Part shown: piece after piece, positions 437 to 29,275 of the stretch
Numbering within the stretch: position 1 is the first letter of the stretch
Layout: each line of letters opens with the position of its first letter
Source: Naegleria gruberi
Lineage: Eukaryota
Reading direction: 5' to 3' (one strand)
Length of the DNA stretch: 64,000 nt
Assembly: GCA_000004985.1 (NCBI GenBank)
Contig: GG738872.1
Position numbers and translations under genes: made by a program
Notes under the pieces: model-generated
Database searches by the model: none
Seen by the model: the letters and a program-made list of their open reading frames with translations, nothing else
Told to the model about the DNA's origin: nothing

Positions 437-1402
437 GTGATGATATTTTTATTAAGCCTCGTCGTGTTCATGCTATAAAATTCTTACTTTCTGAGTGGTG
501 GAAGCACCGTTTGGGCTGTTGGTGGCTAAACTAGTGCGCAAGTAAGGATAAATAGCGCCTTAATATGGTTCATGAGTACACTTTTGTTCCTTGGATTTGA
601 ACTAGAGGTACTCTTAGAACAATGGTGAATATATGATAATGTCTTGAACTCATTCAAAAACAAACCATTTAATAATTTGTAATTTACATACTTGATGTAG
701 AACAAGGAAATGGTGTTACATGATGAAAATAATAAATTTAATTATTTGATGAACATCCTCGAATTAAAATGTTCCTAACCACTTCGCATTGTTATATTCT
801 TGATGATTGCTCACACCTCATAAAGGTTTCCAGACATGAATCCACAAAATGCTTCCCAGTGTTGCTGTTGAAAATCAACAAAGAGAAAGGCTGTACTTTT
901 GTTGCAGAATTTTTCTTGTTGCATATTTTTTAATATTTTTTAAAAAAATATTCAACAATAATCCCTGTATCATTACCATAGCTTAAAGATCAGGGTTTCA
1001 TGCAAACACCAACCTTTCACATCATCCCAACATTATCATCTATGTAGTAGTAATAATAGTAATTTTTATTTCTGGATTATCGTCATGAAATTTATTTTGC
1101 AAGATTGGAAACACTTTAATTTTTGCTGCTATTTCAAAATCTGCAACCTAAATTACATTCAATTACTAACACAATTACTAACAACCAGTTACATTGACTA
1201 ATGGATGAGTTGCTCGATATTACAAAACATGAACCAGGTTTGTGTCCAGAAACAAAAATCAGTTCATGCAAGAATTTAATTTCAATTGGCCACCACACGA
1301 ACTACTTTCTAAAAATATCAATCTTGCTTTAAAACAAGTATAAAAAACAAAGAAGAGGTTTGAATTCAAGAAAAACAATAAGAAAAAAAACAAGACAACA
1401 AA

Positions 1403-3573: not shown

Positions 3574-4596
3574 GATGATGAAATTCCAATAGAGAAGTTT
3601 GTTATGTTATTAATATCAATCATGTAGGTAATTGTTTTATTATTCAATTTCATTGGCTCCTCCCAACTAATGAACCTTCGGGTTGCAATTTGGGAATGAA
3701 TTTTAGAGCACCTATTGAAATGTCACGCATAAAACAACAACTTGTACATCATCAATATTGATAATAATTGAAAGTATGGTAGCAGTAGTATAAGTTTAAC
3801 GAGCAAGGAGATTGATATTACATATTGTTACATTGTCCTCAGCCTATTACAAAATCTAATTATTATTATTAAACAATTATCATTCATCATCAAATATTAA
3901 ATATTAAATATACAAAAATTATGAAACTCTACATTCTAATAGATAACACAACTTTGGAGTAGATATGCAACAATACATAATATACATATTAATATTAAAT
4001 AAACCTTGCTCTATCTTTGTCAGGTTCCGCCCTCACATTCACTACCATCTTTAACTTGATATTTGTCATCGTTACGATGATCATCCGCGTGCTCGGAATC
4101 CTTCTTCATGAACAATTCCATCACCAATTGAATAATCACAAACACGATGGCAATATAACAACTTAATCACGCCATTTTAAAGTTCTTTTTGATATTTTTT
4201 TTAAAGATATTTTGTTCAATATTTTACAAAAAATTATAAATTGGATGTTTAATACTACATTAAGGGAAATGCCAGTTGTCTATTGTTGAGAATGACCAAA
4301 GAATGAAGTCAACTGTGTAATGAGGTCAGTATGAAGAGAGGAATTGGAAACAGAGGGAAGTGAAAATTAATTGGATCTTTATTTACAAAAAGAAATGATT
4401 GTTTGATTTAGGAAGTTTTTCTGTTGATGTTCAACGTCAGCTGTCCTTCAAAAATTCACTTACCCTTCTTGTGTTTGTTGACATTTCAAAAAAAATTGCA
4501 AGTCATTTATCCTATTCACAACCTTCACCACCTTCCTCACTGAAAATCTAGTCATCATCATTATAACAACAAAATTTCACCTGCCAAACATCACAA

Positions 4597-24839: not shown

Positions 24840-26022
24840 ATGCATTGGAATATTGCTGGCTCTCCTTGCGGTGTGGAACTGCAAAGTTGAAGCAGCTCAA
24901 ATACGCCAATTTAACAACAATTTAGAAGGAAAACAGTTGCAAAACAAGCACTCCTATGAAAGTGCACATCCTGAATCAGATATTGCTTGGGAAAATTTAC
25001 CAGTTCATGATGAAAATTTCAACAATTTTATTAACAAACATACGAGAGGTTGGTGGCAAGCAGGAAATAACAAAGTTTTCACAGGAAGAAAACTCAAAGA
25101 CATCCTAAATAGAGGTTCACATTTAAGGAGAAGAAAAGGTCAACATGTAAAAAATAACTATTCAGTAGTCAACTCAAAGATTGTGAAAATTTCAAACTAT
25201 TCCATTCCTCCAGCTTATTCCTTATTGGAAGATCCAAAATTTTCCTCATGTAAACAATTATCACTCATTAGAGATGAACAACAATGTGGATGTTGGGCCT
25301 TTGTAGTTGCTGAAGTTGTTTCTGATAGATTTTGTGTTTCATCCAAGACGAAAGTGAATGAAGTGTTATCGCCTCAATACTTAATTTCATGCGATTCCAA
25401 CAATGGTGGTTGTAGTTATGGATATTTCGATACTGCCTTTCAATTTGTTGAAAATCAAGGCATTGGTAAGTTGAAAACTCACAAATTTTCTCATGAACTT
25501 GTTTCACAGTCACTGAAAATTGCTTTCCATTCGTTTCAGGTGAAGGGAACTACATTCCCCCTTGTCCAAAAAAGTGTCTCGCCTATAATCCTTTCACCCT
25601 CTTCAAGGTCAACAACTCCCGTGCCTTCCTTCCACAGGACATCCAAGGAATGCAATTGAGCATTATGAACGGAGGTTCTCTAGCTGCCTCTCTCGATATT
25701 TACAGAGATTTTGTGCAATACAGGGGTGGTGTGTATAGACATTTGGTGGGAAATTACATGTTTACTCATTCAGTGAGGATTGTTGGGTGGGGAATTACCT
25801 CTCCTCAACAGGGAAGCATTCCATATTGTATGTACTTTTAGGAATTTTATTAACTTTGTGTATTTTTTTAAAATTGAAAAATTGAAAATTTCTAATTTAG
25901 GGATTTGTGGAAATAATTGGACAGAAGAGTGGGGTATGCAAGGTTGGTTCTGGATCCTTAGAGGTTCCAATGAATGTAATATCGAACTAGATGTGTGGGA
26001 AACTACTCCAATAATCAATTAA
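24840..26022 (+). CDS. CTSB: Cathepsin B-like papain-family cysteine protease; join(24853..25465,25540..25827,25901..26022). The N-terminal start is uncertain.
   Basis: Active-site CGCWAFVVAEVVSDRFCV (compare CGSCWAFGAVEAISDRICI). An occluding-loop-like Cys-rich segment is present. Exon 2: GTGEGNYIPPCPKKC...VRIVGWGITSPQQGSIPY. Splicing joins ...PYW | ICGNNWTEEWGMQGWFWILRGSNECNIELDV (compare [26 protein letters not shown]). Introns are 74 nt (gtaagt..tttcag) and 73 nt (gtatgt..aatttag). The track 'M' at 24853 is TTG. The nearest ATG (24840) is one frame off, so there is either a 1-nt frameshift or a missing upstream exon. Confidence 0.75.
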
Positions 26023-26163: not shown

Positions 26164-27438
26164 ATGTCTGTTATCGATGATGATAATTTCTTCTTGTTGG
26201 AAAATAGACTTGATCAGGCATCGATTATTTGTATTTTGGAATTTCTCAATAGGAATGAAATTAATAATTTAGCAAGTTTGATTTATCGATCCGATTCTAC
26301 AGAAATTGAAAAGGGATTTTATAATGAAACATATTTGGATTTAAAATTTGGAAATTGTTTGATGATTTATTGTTGGAAAGATGAGTTTTGGGAGGATTAT
26401 ATGAATGAGAAAATTATGAGGATTAACAAATTATTGAGAAAATCAATAACTCCGATTGAAATATTTAATGATGATGATTGGAATGATGGTGGGAATATTA
26501 GATTGAAATTTATTAAATATATGTGGAAGAGAATTGGTTCAGAGAATTGGAGGTTAATTCAGAAAACAAGACATGACAGAAAGTTATACATTCACTCACT
26601 TTCTGATAAATTATCAAAAATTGCCAAGTTAAACAAAAGGTTCAAAACTCCAGAATGTGAAGGATTGATTAGAGAGAGAATTGAACAAGCTTGTTTTATT
26701 GAAGAAGACTCTCTTTCAAAGTATTTGAAAGAGCCAATGATTGTGGATAATTTGAATGAATCCATACAGTATGAGAAATGGGTCAGTATGGGAATGAATG
26801 TTGGTAAAACAAGTTTATTCATGACAATTAGTGGAGTAGAATTCCCTTTTGAGTATACCCCTAAAGTTTTTGATGGATACAATGCAGCTGTGCTAGTTTC
26901 ATGTATCAACAAGAAAGGAGAAGAAAGAAAAGTTAGTTTTCACTTTGGATTTTGGGACACTGGTAAGTTAACAATTTGGAAAATAATACTATTAAGTTAA
27001 ATAGTTGGAAATGAAGAGTATGATAAATTAAGACCACTTGGTTATCCTGACACAACTATATTTACTCTAAATTATGCTATTAATGATTGGTCAAGTTTAA
27101 AACAATTGGCTGAACATCTACTGTGGGAATCTACTCTTTCCGAGCCAAATGCAACTTTTGTCGTTGTTTCAACAAAGAATGATCTAAAAGAAGAATGTTA
27201 TTGGAATAGTTTATTGGATCCATTATTAATGGAAGAAGCAATTTCTCCAGAAGATGGAATCATGTTTACAAAATCAATAGGAGCAATATCATTTATTGAA
27301 ACAAGTTCTAAAACAAAGAAAGGTATAGAATATCTACTCCAGAAACTTGTTTTACTTAGATTGATACATCTTCAACATTTGAAATCAATTGAAAAGCAAA
27401 AACAGGATGACACAAAAAGGAAATGTTCAGTTCAATAA
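26164..27438 (+). CDS. Atypical, predicted GTPase-deficient Rho-family small GTPase with a 200-aa N-terminal extension; join(26164..26962,27005..27438), about 411 aa.
   Basis: G1 MGMNVGKTS (compare GDGAVGKT; the Gly12-equivalent is Met). G3 WDTV|GNEEYDKLRPLGYPDTTIF across a 42-nt intron (compare [22 protein letters not shown]; the Gln61-equivalent is Asn). G4 STKND. Effector region FEYTPKVFDGYNAAV (compare Rho YVPTVFDNYSA). Confidence 0.65.
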
Positions 27439-27572: not shown

Positions 27573-29275
27573 CTATTTAAAGTATGGAAGTAAATGATCT
27601 CTTGGAGTGAAAAATACTCTATATTTGGTGGGATCCATATAGTACATACTCTTTTCAACTGAAAATGGTGGAAATTCATTTCCGTTGGAATGAGTCAACT
27701 TGAAATGTCTAACTAATGCTATTAAGGCAAAGTAAATTTCATTAGTGGCAACTCTTTCTCCCTATTACAATTCACGATTATATAATATAATAATTGATTA
27801 ATATTACTATTATATAATTATTAAATACTTACCGGACATTTACGAGCTCCAGTTCCAAATGGGCCAAGGTAATCCTTTGGCTCGCTTATTTCAGATCCCT
27901 TGATGTGACGTTCTGGAAGAAATTCAATTCCACGTGGAACATATTTGGATTGAACTGATGGCACATCCAAGAATAAGACCTGGGTTCCCTTTTCTAATTT
28001 GTAAGCGCCAAGAATAGTGTCTTTGGTCAATAGACGAGAGTTTCTTACTGGAATAACACTGTCCACTCTCATGAGTTCATCAATGAACAATTTACATAAT
28101 TTCAATTGTTTCATATGTTCTGGGGTGACTTGCACTTGTCAATTCATCAGCAGTTGGTTCACCAAATACTTGAGCTGTCTCTTCATATAATTTCTGAGCC
28201 CACTCCTTTTCGTGAGCAATTCTATACAACAAAGTAGTCATCATACGAGCTGTAACATCGACACCACCAATCATGAATGCAGAGAGTACAGTAGTTGTTG
28301 CTTCAGAAAGAAAACCAGCCATCTTTGCTCTTTCTTCGACCAATTCTTTGAGTCTTGGAATTTTACCATCATAACGATCAGATAAAAGATCAACAAGCTT
28401 GAATCCACGTCCAAAGGAAATATCACTCAACTCTTCAAAATCCTTATAATCCTTTGTTTTGTAGCCGTACTTGTAAAGACCTGGTTGGTATTGAAGTTTG
28501 AGGATTAGATCAGTAGTATCAACAGCATCCTTAATATACTGTCTAACTGTGAATCCTAATTTTTCAATCAATTCCTTTTCAGTCACTTTAACACCCAAGA
28601 ATACTTTGATTACTGCACTAAAGGCGAATTGACTCATAATATCATACATTGGATCAGCAAAATAATATTGTTTTGAATTTTCATCAAATTTCAAGGTATT
28701 AACAAATGATTTCAATAATTCATTGTTCAATTCAGTCAATTGTGGCAAAATGACTTCGTTGAAATATTGTGGCTTGAGGGGAATATTCAAAACTTGACGA
28801 ATATCATTCCAATTCTCATGATTGAAATAGTCCATTGTAACCCTAATCATTCCCTTTTCAAGTTTGTAATGTCTTGATGCATGAAGAGTTAATCTTCCTT
28901 CTTCCCCTCTTGCTAACTCACGAACTGCCTTTGGATCTGACAAAATGACCATCTTGTTATTCAATAATTTAATCTTTACAAAATCCCCATATTGATTGGC
29001 CAATTCGGTGAAATAAGCATTTGGATTATTGGCATTCTTGAACAAATCTAAAGCTTGTCCTATGAATGGCAATCCCTTTGGGCCCGGCATTTCGTCAAAA
29101 CTCTTGAGAGGTTGTGTTGGACTTAACGGACGTTCTTGTGAAGATTAGGACATTGTGCCGTGCTACCTGAATGTGTTTCAACTTGCAAGGTGATATTCGA
29201 AAGAGAGAAGGAACGTTGCGTCAGTTTTGCTAATTGCTTGTTGAGAGAAAGTGTTTGAGTAGTTCTTCTTAGCAT
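27573..29275 (-). CDS. Cytochrome P450 with a presequence-like N-terminus (possibly mitochondrial-type); join(29275..29167,29134..27833,27761..27573). An apparent 1-nt frameshift lies near 28100-28120.
   Basis: MPGPKGLPFIGQ near the N-terminus. I-helix GGVDVTA. ExxR as ELMR. PERF-like FLPERH. The heme loop FGTGARKCPG forms only after splicing ccg|gtaagt...ttgtaatag|gga (70-nt intron, 27832..27763), which adds ERVATNEIYFALIALVRHFKL... The N-terminal and C-terminal halves sit in two overlapping ORFs (28092..29090 and 27821..28135) that differ by one frame. The proposed first exon MLRRTTQTLSLNKQLAKLTQRSFSLS... plus a 32-nt intron is tentative. Confidence 0.7.

What the first reader, a model, noticed from the sequence alone, without database searches (positions are those of the whole stretch)
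26164..27438. Rho-like GTPase predicted to be GTPase-dead, with a 200-aa N-terminal extension
The GTPase core is Rho-like (FEYTPKVFDGYNA, RPLGYPDTTIF, TKND). The positions equivalent to Gly12 and Gln61 are Met and Asn (MGMNVGKT; WDTVGNEEY). These substitutions abolish intrinsic and GAP-stimulated hydrolysis in Rnd, RhoH and RhoBTB-type atypical Rho proteins. An uncharacterised 200-aa N-terminal domain precedes the core. The G3 motif is split by a 42-nt intron.
Basis: partly seen in the sequence, partly recalled or inferred. Interest (0 to 1): 0.5.

Follow-up and report, generated by a model that had tools for sequence, protein, structure and literature searches.

The report
Catalytically degenerate Naegleria Rho-like protein
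This is an already annotated Naegleria gruberi gene for a Rho-family protein that has lost the residues needed to hydrolyse GTP. It belongs to a Naegleria-specific group of Rho proteins with long N-terminal, F-box-type extensions, so it is an interesting but not unprecedented "broken switch".

Summary
Exons 26164..26962 and 27005..27438 (+), joined across a 42-nt GT..AG intron, encode 410 aa. This is 100% identical to N. gruberi XP_002676342.1, annotated "rho family small GTPase".

The G domain (residues ~205-385) is Rho-type:
- All 60 listed PDB hits are Rho-family GTPases (best RhoA, 4.5e-25).
- The Rho insert is present.
- The C-terminus is polybasic plus CSVQ.

The Gln61 equivalent is Asn269, as in RhoH. 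No register places a Gly at position 12.

- The P-loop is one residue short (GMNVGKT, not GxxxxGKT).
- The switch I Thr35 equivalent is Lys234.
- The C-terminus is a farnesyl-type CaaX box.

Six relatives share the architecture: an N. gruberi paralogue, an N. lovaniensis protein and four metagenome contigs. None keeps Gln61 or Gly12. All keep GKT, Asp57, xKxD and S[AS]K/M wherever that part of the sequence is available.

The N-terminal 205 aa has no Pfam or PDB match. It aligns weakly, collinearly and above shuffles with the N-terminal extensions of published N. gruberi F-box-Rac proteins.

Best reading: a hydrolysis-dead, probably still nucleotide-bound, prenylated Rho-like adaptor. It is a new member of a known kind, of modest interest.

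The parts
26164..26962 (+). Exon 1 (codons 1-266 plus the first base of Val267). Covers the N-terminal extension, P-loop, switch I and 'WDT' of G3.
   Evidence: Open frame from the first ATG after an in-frame stop. The product is identical to XP_002676342.1.
26963..27004 (+). 42-nt phase-1 intron (GTAAGT...ATAG) splitting the G3 motif DTxG
   Evidence: Introns sit at the same codon and phase in homologues L004 (40 nt) and L006 (43 nt). There are zero differences from the 97.6%-identical contig L003.
27005..27438 (+). Exon 2 (rest of Val267 to Gln410, plus TAA)
26191..26322 (+). Residues 10-53: F-box-like helix pair (NRLDQASIICILEFLNRNEINNLASL...)
   Evidence: hhalign against canonical F-boxes: probability 9.8%, P 0.0033, 0/300 shuffles reach the score. 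hhalign against N. gruberi F-box-Rac N-termini: probability 19%, 44 columns, score 28.1 against a shuffle maximum of 16.7. No Pfam hit.
26491..26535 (+). Residues 110-124: conserved mid-extension motif GNIRLKFIKYMWKRI (family pattern N[FYI]R..F..(K)..W)
   Evidence: R113, F116 and W121 are invariant in the family. The motif aligns with N[FY]R..L of the N. gruberi F-box-Rac extensions: score 17.8 against a shuffle maximum of 14.8.
26164..26775 (+). Whole N-terminal extension (residues 1-204), lineage-specific and predicted mostly helical at low confidence
   Evidence: Conserved in five homologues at 25-47% identity. No Pfam or PDB match. AlphaFold2 pLDDT 36-37.
26776..26811 (+). Beta1 plus P-loop, K205-T216: KWVSMGMNVGKT, one residue shorter than Rho KxVVVGDGAVGKT
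   Evidence: MAFFT places a one-residue gap against all ten Rho/Ras references. The sequence is identical in the independent contig L003. The same spacing occurs in L006 (KWVSIESHVGKT).
26854..26880 (+). Switch I, Y231-Y239: YTPKVFDGY. Lys234 (26863..26865) replaces the invariant Thr35(Ras)/Thr37(RhoA).
   Evidence: Ungapped phmmer alignment to RhoA and MAFFT
26953..27021 (+). G3/switch II, W264-Y272: WDTVGNEEY, interrupted by the intron. Asn269 (27010..27012) is the Gln61 equivalent and Val267 the Ala59 equivalent.
27172..27183 (+). G4 motif T323-K-N-D326 (guanine specificity), intact
   Evidence: K and D are conserved in every family member.
27187..27234 (+). Rho insert region (about residues 328-343, KEECYWNSLLDPLLME) with the family-conserved W.S[LI][LF]
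   Evidence: A 14-residue insertion relative to H-Ras, shared with RhoA, Rac1 and Cdc42. W333, S335 and L336 are invariant.
27304..27312 (+). G5 motif S367-S-K369 (SAK equivalent)
27415..27438 (+). Polybasic K404-R-K, then CaaX box C407-S-V-Q410, then stop
   Evidence: Read directly from the sequence. CxxQ is conserved in five of the six family C-termini: CTVQ, CDVQ, CQLQ, CSVQ.

Best explanation
This is a real, intact N. gruberi gene (XP_002676342.1) for a divergent Rho-family protein that no longer works as a GTP-hydrolysing switch.

Shown:
- It has a Rho-type G domain with the Rho insert.
- The catalytic Gln is replaced by Asn.
- No Gly sits at position 12, and the P-loop is one residue short.
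- Switch I has Lys in place of Thr.
- The phosphate and guanine contacts are intact (GKT, Asp57, Gly60, TKND, SSK).
- The C-terminus is a polybasic CSVQ.
- The same architecture and the same kind of degeneracy recur in six relatives.

Inferred:
- The protein still holds a guanine nucleotide but cannot hydrolyse it, either intrinsically or with a GAP.
- It is farnesylated and sits on a membrane.
- It acts as a constitutive adaptor whose output is set by abundance and location rather than by a GEF/GAP cycle.
- Its N-terminal ~205 aa is the partner-binding part, and is probably a decayed version of the F-box-containing extension seen in many other Naegleria Rac paralogues.
For: Identity and gene model.

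Rho membership: Pfam Ras, 2.6e-19; best hit RhoA at 4.5e-25, all 60 listed hits Rho family; Rho insert present relative to H-Ras.

Motif states.

Family-wide pattern, given as P-loop / switch I / switch II:
- Window gene: GMN-VGKT / PK / DTVGN
- XP_002669751: GATFVGKT / PT / DTAGG
- L006: ESH-VGKT / PT / DTASG
- L004: P-loop not covered / PT / DTVGS
- N. lovaniensis: GQSGIGKT / PS / DTCER
- L005: GAHGVGKT / QR / DMPID
Wherever the sequence is available, all keep GKT, WD, xKxD and S[AS]K/M.

Purifying selection, from comparison with the 97.6%-identical contig L003:
- 6 synonymous and 7 non-synonymous changes, pN/pS 0.27, binomial p 0.024.
- One in-frame 3-nt indel.
- Coding sequence 1.25% diverged against ~5% for the 3' flank.

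Literature:
- Lack of Gly12 and changes in G3 make Rnd and RhoH GTPase-deficient and constitutively active (PMC13236570).
- Naegleria has more than 80 Rho genes. [quoted passage not shown]

Link of the N-terminus to F-box-Rac extensions:
- Two collinear hhalign matches, each above all 150 shuffles.
- In the G-domain NJ tree the family is monophyletic in 199/200 bootstraps. It nests only among extended/F-box Racs in 143/200.
- Those extensions are true F-boxes: hhalign 93%, Pfam F-box in 4 of 7.
Against: - There is no biochemical or transcript evidence.
- The shortened P-loop and Lys234 could abolish Mg2+/nucleotide binding altogether.
- The calibrated hhalign probabilities for the N-terminus are low (9.8%, 19% and 1.7%), and Pfam finds no F-box even at E<=10.
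- The key F-box 'LP' is 'LD', and the helix-3 Trp is missing.
- Column shuffles destroy helical periodicity, so they overstate significance.
- The NJ grouping of fast-evolving sequences may be long-branch attraction.
- Both AlphaFold2 runs failed (pLDDT 36-37), so no fold evidence exists.
- The pN/pS estimate rests on only 13 substitutions.
Confidence: 0.6

Rival explanations
1. Nucleotide-free pseudoGTPase. The one-residue deletion in the P-loop and the loss of the Mg2+-coordinating switch I Thr prevent nucleotide binding, and the G domain is only a folded scaffold.
For: The P-loop is GxxxGKT rather than [AG]xxxxGK[ST], and Lys234 sits at the Thr35 site. L006 has the same short loop with no glycine in its first half (ESHVGKT).
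Against: GKT, Asp57 and the K and D of NKxD and S[AS]K are kept in every family member down to ~30% identity, while the catalytic residues drift. That is the pattern expected if nucleotide contacts are still selected. Gly60 is also kept in the window protein.
Confidence: 0.25
2. Still a working GTPase with unconventional catalysis. Either Asn269 or a partner or GAP supplies the catalytic groups in trans, as RapGAP does for Rap, which lacks Gln61 (my own knowledge).
For: Asn is chemically close to Gln. G1 Lys/Thr, Asp57, Gly60, G4 and G5 are intact. Naegleria has very large RhoGAP/RhoGEF repertoires (PMC8305917).
Against: The residue at the position 61 equivalent differs in the relatives (N, G, G, S, R, D), and position 12 likewise. 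No alternative catalytic residue is therefore conserved. RhoH, with the same Q61N, is GTPase-deficient and GAP-insensitive (PMC13236570).
Confidence: 0.08
3. A decaying paralogue in a birth-and-death gene family: a gene on its way to becoming a pseudogene, with no function of its own.
For: N. gruberi has more than 80 Rho genes, and the authors of PMC8296547 note disrupted copies in the related Rab-like expansions. Several metagenome homologues carry frameshifts or lack the CaaX box (L001, L004).
Against: The 410-codon frame is intact, with a conserved start, intron, CaaX box and stop. pN/pS is 0.27, and the indel against L003 is in frame. The architecture is kept in relatives only 30-50% identical. 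The gene is not flagged as a pseudogene in Table S8.
Confidence: 0.07

Closest known systems
N. gruberi paralogue XP_002669751.1 (corrected model in Table S8 of Herman et al. 2021, PMC8296547) and N. lovaniensis C9374_000262 (XP_044552815.1)
   Same: They share the whole architecture: an N-terminal ~200-aa extension, a Rho-like domain with a ~10-aa beta2-beta3 insertion, a long C-terminal helix and CxxQ. Identity is 51% and ~30% respectively. Both also lack Gly12 and Gln61.
   Different: Both have a P-loop of canonical length (GATFVGKT, GQSGIGKT) and Thr or Ser at the switch I site. The window protein has the short loop and Lys.
N. gruberi F-box-Rac proteins (e.g. XP_002671699.1, XP_002676320.1, XP_002673500.1; PMC8296547, Additional files 4 and 10)
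   Same: - Same organism and the same layout: a 130-200-aa N-terminal extension, a Rho domain and a CaaX box that often ends in Q.
- 'ETS/ESS' in G5 instead of the usual 'ECS'.
- The N-termini align in register at the F-box and at an N[FY]R motif.
- The G domains group together in 143/200 bootstraps.
   Different: Their F-box is detectable (Pfam in 4 of 7; hhalign 93%), whereas the window family's is not. Most of them keep GDGxxGKT and DTAGQ.
RhoH and Rnd1-3 (animal GTPase-deficient atypical Rho proteins)
   Same: Non-Gly at position 12 and non-Gln at position 61. RhoH has the same Gln61-to-Asn change (on a RhoH sequence written from memory; PMC13236570). Rnd proteins are farnesylated (my own knowledge).
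   Different: - They are not orthologues: identity is 24-27%, and the window protein groups with Naegleria-specific paralogues.
- RhoH and Rnd keep a full-length P-loop and Thr35 and have no long N-terminal domain.
- They work the same way only by inference.
RhoBTB (Rho + BTB, Cul3 adaptor) and Rab40 (Rab + SOCS box, Cul5 adaptor)
   Same: A small-GTPase domain, atypical in RhoBTB, fused to a cullin-adaptor module. Both are mentioned in PMC13236570. Naegleria also has RhoBTB.
   Different: The window protein has no BTB or SOCS domain. Its extension is N-terminal and only weakly F-box-like. Skp1/Cul1 binding is untested.
F-box-Rho protein P0014 from marine metagenomes (TARA and others)
   Same: An N-terminal F-box, a Rho domain and a CALQ CaaX box, with a non-Gln (Pro) at position 61.
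   Different: It has a short (~100 aa) extension with a clear Pfam F-box-like hit (2.2e-10), a canonical GDGAVGKT P-loop and Thr35. It comes from an unrelated lineage.

Membership tests
Rho family of the Ras superfamily | Ras-type G domain recognised by a profile | tested here: met
   Pfam PF00071 Ras, E 2.6e-19, residues 211-382
Rho family of the Ras superfamily | Closest relatives are Rho/Rac/Cdc42 rather than Ras/Rab/Arf/Ran | tested here: met
   All 60 listed PDB hits are RhoA, RhoB, Rac1, Cdc42 or TC10, best 4.5e-25. Identity is 32% to RhoA and Rac1 against 26% to H-Ras.
Rho family of the Ras superfamily | Rho insert between beta5 and alpha4 | tested here: met
   A 14-column insertion relative to H-Ras, shared with RhoA, Rac1 and Cdc42
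Rho family of the Ras superfamily | C-terminal CaaX prenylation box preceded by basic residues | tested here: met
   KRK-CSVQ at the C-terminus. Actual prenylation is not testable here.
Functional (switching) small GTPase | Walker A [AG]xxxxGK[ST] | tested here: not met
   The motif is M-GMNV-GKT. There are only three residues between the glycines, and MAFFT opens a one-residue gap.
Functional (switching) small GTPase | Switch I Thr35 (Mg2+ and gamma-phosphate sensor) | tested here: not met
   Lys234 in an ungapped alignment to RhoA YVPTVFENY
Functional (switching) small GTPase | Catalytic Gln61 and Gly12 | tested here: not met
   Asn269 at position 61, and Met211 or Asn212 at position 12
Functional (switching) small GTPase | DxxG, NKxD and SAK nucleotide contacts | tested here: met
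   D265-T-V-G268, T323-K-N-D326 and S367-S-K369
GTPase-deficient atypical Rho (Rnd/RhoH type) | Substitutions at positions 12 and 61 | tested here: met
   The criterion is taken from PMC13236570.
GTPase-deficient atypical Rho (Rnd/RhoH type) | Constitutively GTP-bound, with no intrinsic or GAP-stimulated hydrolysis | not testable with these tools
   Needs biochemistry
GTPase-deficient atypical Rho (Rnd/RhoH type) | Orthology to animal Rnd or RhoH | tested here: not met
   24-27% identity. The family is monophyletic and sits with Naegleria paralogues. The resemblance is convergent.
Naegleria F-box-Rac group (PMC8296547) | F-box detectable in the N-terminal extension | tested here: not met
   No Pfam F-box at E<=10 in four family members. 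The gene is listed without a domain in Table S8.
Naegleria F-box-Rac group (PMC8296547) | N-terminal extension homologous to that of the group | tested here: inconclusive
   hhalign probability 19% (44 columns over the F-box) and 1.7% (N[FY]R motif). Both matches are in register and above all 150 shuffles.
Naegleria F-box-Rac group (PMC8296547) | G domain groups with the group's G domains | tested here: inconclusive
   In the NJ tree the family nests only among extended/F-box Racs in 143/200 bootstraps. Long-branch attraction is possible.
RhoBTB | Tandem BTB domains C-terminal to the Rho domain | tested here: not met
   No BTB hit. The protein ends 25 aa after the G domain.

The most novel reading that the evidence does not exclude
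The N-terminal extension is a still-functional, highly diverged F-box. If so, the protein is a farnesyl-anchored SCF (Skp1-Cul1) substrate receptor whose substrate-binding or membrane-targeting module is a dead Rho domain. That would be a Cul1 counterpart of RhoBTB-Cul3 and Rab40-Cul5, fixed in an 'always on' state. Herman et al. 2021 already proposed GTPase-linked ubiquitination in Naegleria in general terms, which limits the novelty.
Probability: 0.25. Interest if true: 0.55.

Novelty: new member of a known kind. Interest (0 to 1): 0.3.

Why it matters
Loss of GTPase chemistry in Rho proteins is best known from animals (Rnd, RhoH, RhoBTB). This gene shows the same outcome arising independently in a heterolobosean. 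It lies inside a very large Naegleria-specific Rho expansion that repeatedly couples G domains to F-box-type extensions.

The small family offers a natural series of progressively broken switches. Its members differ at position 12, position 61 and Thr35, and P-loop length also varies. Testing them could show which G-domain features are still needed once hydrolysis is abandoned.

This is not a new principle. The gene is already annotated and catalogued.

Tried and rejected
1. Structure route. AlphaFold2 on the single sequence and on a 7-sequence alignment gave mean pLDDT 36.4 and 37.1. I ran no fold search, because matches to such models would be meaningless.

2. Word-indexed protein searches. 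The whole protein, the N-terminal alignment and the family alignment returned only 1-4 proteins each. The exhaustive HMMER search was what revealed the family.

3. JGI metagenome scans.
- The family alignment gave 107 pattern matches, none confirmed.
- The exact exon-exon junction gave 0 matches. The intron therefore has no transcript confirmation.

4. Direct F-box assignment.
- Pfam gave nothing at E<=10.
- A PDB profile search of the N-terminus gave only chance-level hits at E>=0.085, none of them an F-box protein.
- I therefore do not file the protein as an F-box protein.

5. The many Rho hits with ~100-aa N-terminal extensions were checked. They are mostly vertebrate RhoA models with spurious 5' extensions.

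6. I dropped the idea that the short P-loop is a shared derived character of the window gene and L006. L006 is slightly closer to the paralogue XP_002669751 (57% against 51%).

7. The pseudoGTPase review (PMC7544640) is not held. Statements about pseudoGTPase classes rest on my own knowledge.

8. No paper in the library cites the accession numbers in its main text.
Full report
**1. What is at the coordinates**

The window is AT-rich (about 27-37% GC) and eukaryotic.
- A + strand ORF starts at ATG 26164, the first ATG after in-frame stops. It runs to 27000 if unspliced.
- Removing 26963..27004 (42 nt, GTAAGT...ATAG) joins it in frame to 27005..27438. This gives 1233 nt and 410 codons ending in TAA.
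- The product is 100% identical, end to end, to XP_002676342.1 / EFC43598.1 / D2VHJ4, "rho family small GTPase" of Naegleria gruberi NEG-M.
- The neighbours are a papain-family protease gene upstream and a cytochrome P450 gene downstream on the other strand. They say nothing about function.

**2. The intron**

No transcript data were reachable, and the exon junction has no match in the JGI collection. The comparative evidence is nevertheless good.
- Two homologues on metagenome contigs have short GT..AG introns after the first base of the codon that follows WDT. That is the same site and phase as here.
  - L004: WDT|VGSDEF, 40 nt.
  - L006: WDT|ASGEYY, 43 nt.
- The intron-less homologues from N. 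lovaniensis and L005 read straight through the junction.

**3. The G domain is Rho-type, and the register is right**
- Pfam Ras matches residues 211-382 (2.6e-19).
- Against PDB sequences, the 60 listed hits are all RhoA, RhoB, Rac1, Cdc42 or TC10. The best is RhoA at 4.5e-25.
- A MAFFT alignment was made with RhoA, Rac1, Cdc42, RhoH, Rnd3 and H-Ras, all written from memory.
  - It shows the Rho insert, 14 columns that H-Ras lacks.
  - It also shows the Rho-typical YDKLRPLGYPDT.
- The phmmer alignment is ungapped through both switches.
  - WDTVGNEEY lies over WDTAGQEDY. Asn269 is therefore the Gln61 equivalent, the same change as in RhoH. Val267 replaces Ala59.
- YTPKVFDGY lies over YVPTVFENY.

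**4. The P-loop is worse than reported**
- From the beta1 Lys to the GKT Thr, Rho proteins have 13 residues (KCVVVGDGAVGKT). The window protein has 12 (KWVSMGMNVGKT).
- MAFFT therefore opens a one-residue gap.
It is never Gly.
- The Walker A pattern [AG]xxxxGK[ST] is not met.
- The 97.6%-identical independent contig L003 has the same codons, so this is not a sequencing error.

**5. A small family with the same architecture**

The exhaustive HMMER search gave 4261 hits at E<=1e-3 but only 6 below 1e-30. Following those hits to their DNA and to a published table gives six relatives.

| Member | Source | Extent | P-loop | Switch I | Switch II | C-terminus |
|---|---|---|---|---|---|---|
| XP_002669751.1 | N. 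gruberi paralogue, 51% identical; RefSeq model truncated, corrected model in Table S8 | full length | KWVSMGATFVGKT | YTPTVFD | WDTAGGEDY | CTVQ |
| C9374_000262 | N. lovaniensis | full length | GQSGIGKT | WSPSIVD | WDTCEREE | CDVQ |
| L005 | metagenome, 391-aa single ORF | full length | GAHGVGKT | YLQRTFD | WDMPIDSEY | CQLQ |
| L006 | metagenome | partial | KWVSIESHVGKT | YVPTVFD | WDTASGEYY | CSVQ |
| L004 | metagenome | partial | not covered | YVPT | WDTVGSDEF | no CaaX found |
| L001 | metagenome | N-terminal part only | not covered | not covered | not covered | not covered |

- No member keeps Gln61 or Gly12.
- Gly60 is lost in three members, and Thr35 is lost in two.
- By contrast, GKT, the WD of G3, the K and D of G4 and the S[AS]K/M of G5 are kept wherever the sequence is available.
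- So the nucleotide contacts are conserved while the catalytic and sensor residues drift. That is the main argument that the proteins still bind nucleotide but have given up hydrolysis.
- This is an inference, not a measurement.

**6. The gene is under constraint**

These figures compare the window with L003.
- There are 13 substitutions in 1037 coding nt (6 synonymous, 7 non-synonymous).
- pN/pS is 0.27, with binomial p 0.024.
- There is one in-frame 3-nt indel.
- There are no changes in the intron, and about 5% divergence in the 3' flank.
- The numbers are small but point away from a pseudogene.
- The curated Table S8 flags pseudogenes and does not flag this gene.

**7. The C-terminus**

KRK-CSVQ is a polybasic CaaX box. 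CxxQ recurs in five of the six family C-termini. From established knowledge of prenyltransferase specificity, X = Q directs farnesylation, whereas most Rho proteins end in L and are geranylgeranylated. Membrane anchoring is therefore inferred.

**8. The N-terminal 205 residues**

Conservation and direct searches:
- The region is conserved across the family at 25-47% identity. L16, D17, I24, L25, F27, W71, D73, W76, R113, F116 and W121 are invariant.
- It has no Pfam hit at E<=10 and no meaningful PDB profile hit.
- AlphaFold2 failed twice.

Comparison with canonical F-boxes:
- Residues 16-38 (LDQASIICILEFLNRNEINNLAS) look like F-box helices 1-2.
- hhalign against a hand-made F-box alignment gave probability 9.8% and P 0.0033. 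None of 300 column shuffles reached the score.

The decisive context came from the literature (Herman et al. 2021, PMC8296547):
- N. gruberi has more than 80 Rho genes.
- The authors suggest GTPase-dependent ubiquitination.
- Table S8 lists the window gene as "Rac" without a domain. It sits among Rac proteins with 130-200-aa N-terminal extensions.

Tests against those extensions:
- They are bona fide F-boxes: hhalign 93% and E 2.7e-7 against canonical F-boxes, and Pfam F-box in 4 of 7.
- The window family's N-terminus aligns with them in register over the whole F-box. This covers 44 columns at probability 19%, with score 28.1 against a shuffle mean of 10.6 and maximum of 16.7.
- It aligns again at a downstream N[FY]R..[FL] motif. 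The score is 17.8 against a shuffle mean of 9.1 and maximum of 14.8.
- In an NJ tree of G domains the window family is monophyletic in 199/200 bootstraps. It nests only among these extended Racs in 143/200.

I conclude that the extension is probably (about 0.6) a decayed relative of the Naegleria F-box-Rac extension. Whether it still binds Skp1 is unknown. Under the membership test it is not an F-box protein.

**9. Mechanism**

Most likely (0.6) this is a farnesylated, membrane-bound Rho-like protein that holds nucleotide but neither hydrolyses it nor responds to GAPs.
- It would act as a constitutive adaptor through its N-terminal helical extension.
- It would be controlled by synthesis, turnover and localisation, as is described for Rnd and RhoH (PMC13236570).

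The rivals are:
- a nucleotide-free pseudoGTPase (0.25), favoured by the short P-loop and Lys234;
- a GTPase with catalysis supplied in trans (0.08);
- a decaying paralogue (0.07).

**10. Comparison, novelty and score**

The protein works like RhoH and Rnd by inference, but it is not their orthologue. It is a Rho-family member by fold-level sequence criteria and fails the defining features of a functional switch. It is close to, but not demonstrably within, the Naegleria F-box-Rac group.

The gene is annotated and catalogued, and the general phenomenon has been published: atypical and multidomain Rho proteins in Naegleria, with F-box fusions. Three things appear to be undescribed in the searched library:
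- the specific degeneracy of the window protein (short P-loop, T35K, Q61N);
- its recurrence across this small family;
- the likely F-box ancestry of the extension.

This is a new member of a known kind, with interest 0.3.

Noticed in passing
window 24853..26022 (+): Papain-family (Peptidase_C1, cathepsin-B-like) gene immediately upstream. It has a ~73-nt GT..AG intron at about 25828..25900 that restores ...IPYW|ICGNNWTEEWG.
   Followed up: partly
window 27821..29090 (-): Cytochrome P450 gene, convergent with the Rho-like gene. It has at least two exons: Pfam p450 positions 2-314 and 313-412 fall on separate ORFs.
   Followed up: partly
L007 3001..3885 (also L008, L009; marine/TARA metagenome contigs): P0014 is a 294-aa protein with a clear Pfam F-box-like domain (2.2e-10), a canonical-P-loop Rho domain with Pro at the Gln61 position, and a CALQ CaaX box. 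F-box-Rho fusions therefore also exist outside Naegleria.
   Followed up: partly
L002 ~3950..4003 (N. lovaniensis PYSW02000009.1): The deposited model C9374_000262 starts at a Met inside the conserved N-terminal region. The F-box-like stretch 'NRTLDTGSLLHILQFFS' lies in frame just upstream, while the nearest upstream ATG is in another frame. The cause is either a frameshift or mis-annotation, or a shortened protein in that species.
   Followed up: partly
P0003 = XP_002669751.1 (N. gruberi, elsewhere in the genome): This RefSeq model (204 aa, named 'ras family') is a truncated version of a ~400-aa paralogue of the window gene. The full model is given in Table S8 of PMC8296547.
   Followed up: yes
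L001 ~455..470: The metagenome homologue of the N-terminal domain has a 1-nt frameshift after ...NERK. The conserved sequence continues in another frame (SFISSISNKITEMAKL). The cause is either an assembly error or a disrupted copy.
   Followed up: no
P0004, P0009, P0012 (hits): Proteins made of two to four tandem Rho domains: P0004 with 786 aa and 3 domains, P0009 with 1207 aa and 4, and P0012 from Anaeramoeba ignava with 436 aa and 2. Several of the domains have degenerate switch II motifs.
   Followed up: no
N. gruberi proteins in Table S8 of PMC8296547: Other extended N. gruberi Racs are also degenerate. XP_002677510 has GNSTCGKT / WDLPCRDGY. XP_002671259 has GLPGSGRT / WDLGCHPGF, with the P-loop Lys changed to Arg. 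XP_002671994 has no DxxG. Loss of GTPase motifs therefore seems recurrent in this expansion.
   Followed up: no
window 26468..26470: The only indel against the 97.6%-identical contig L003 within the coding region is an in-frame loss of one codon in the Asp run NDDDW (residues ~102-104).
   Followed up: yes
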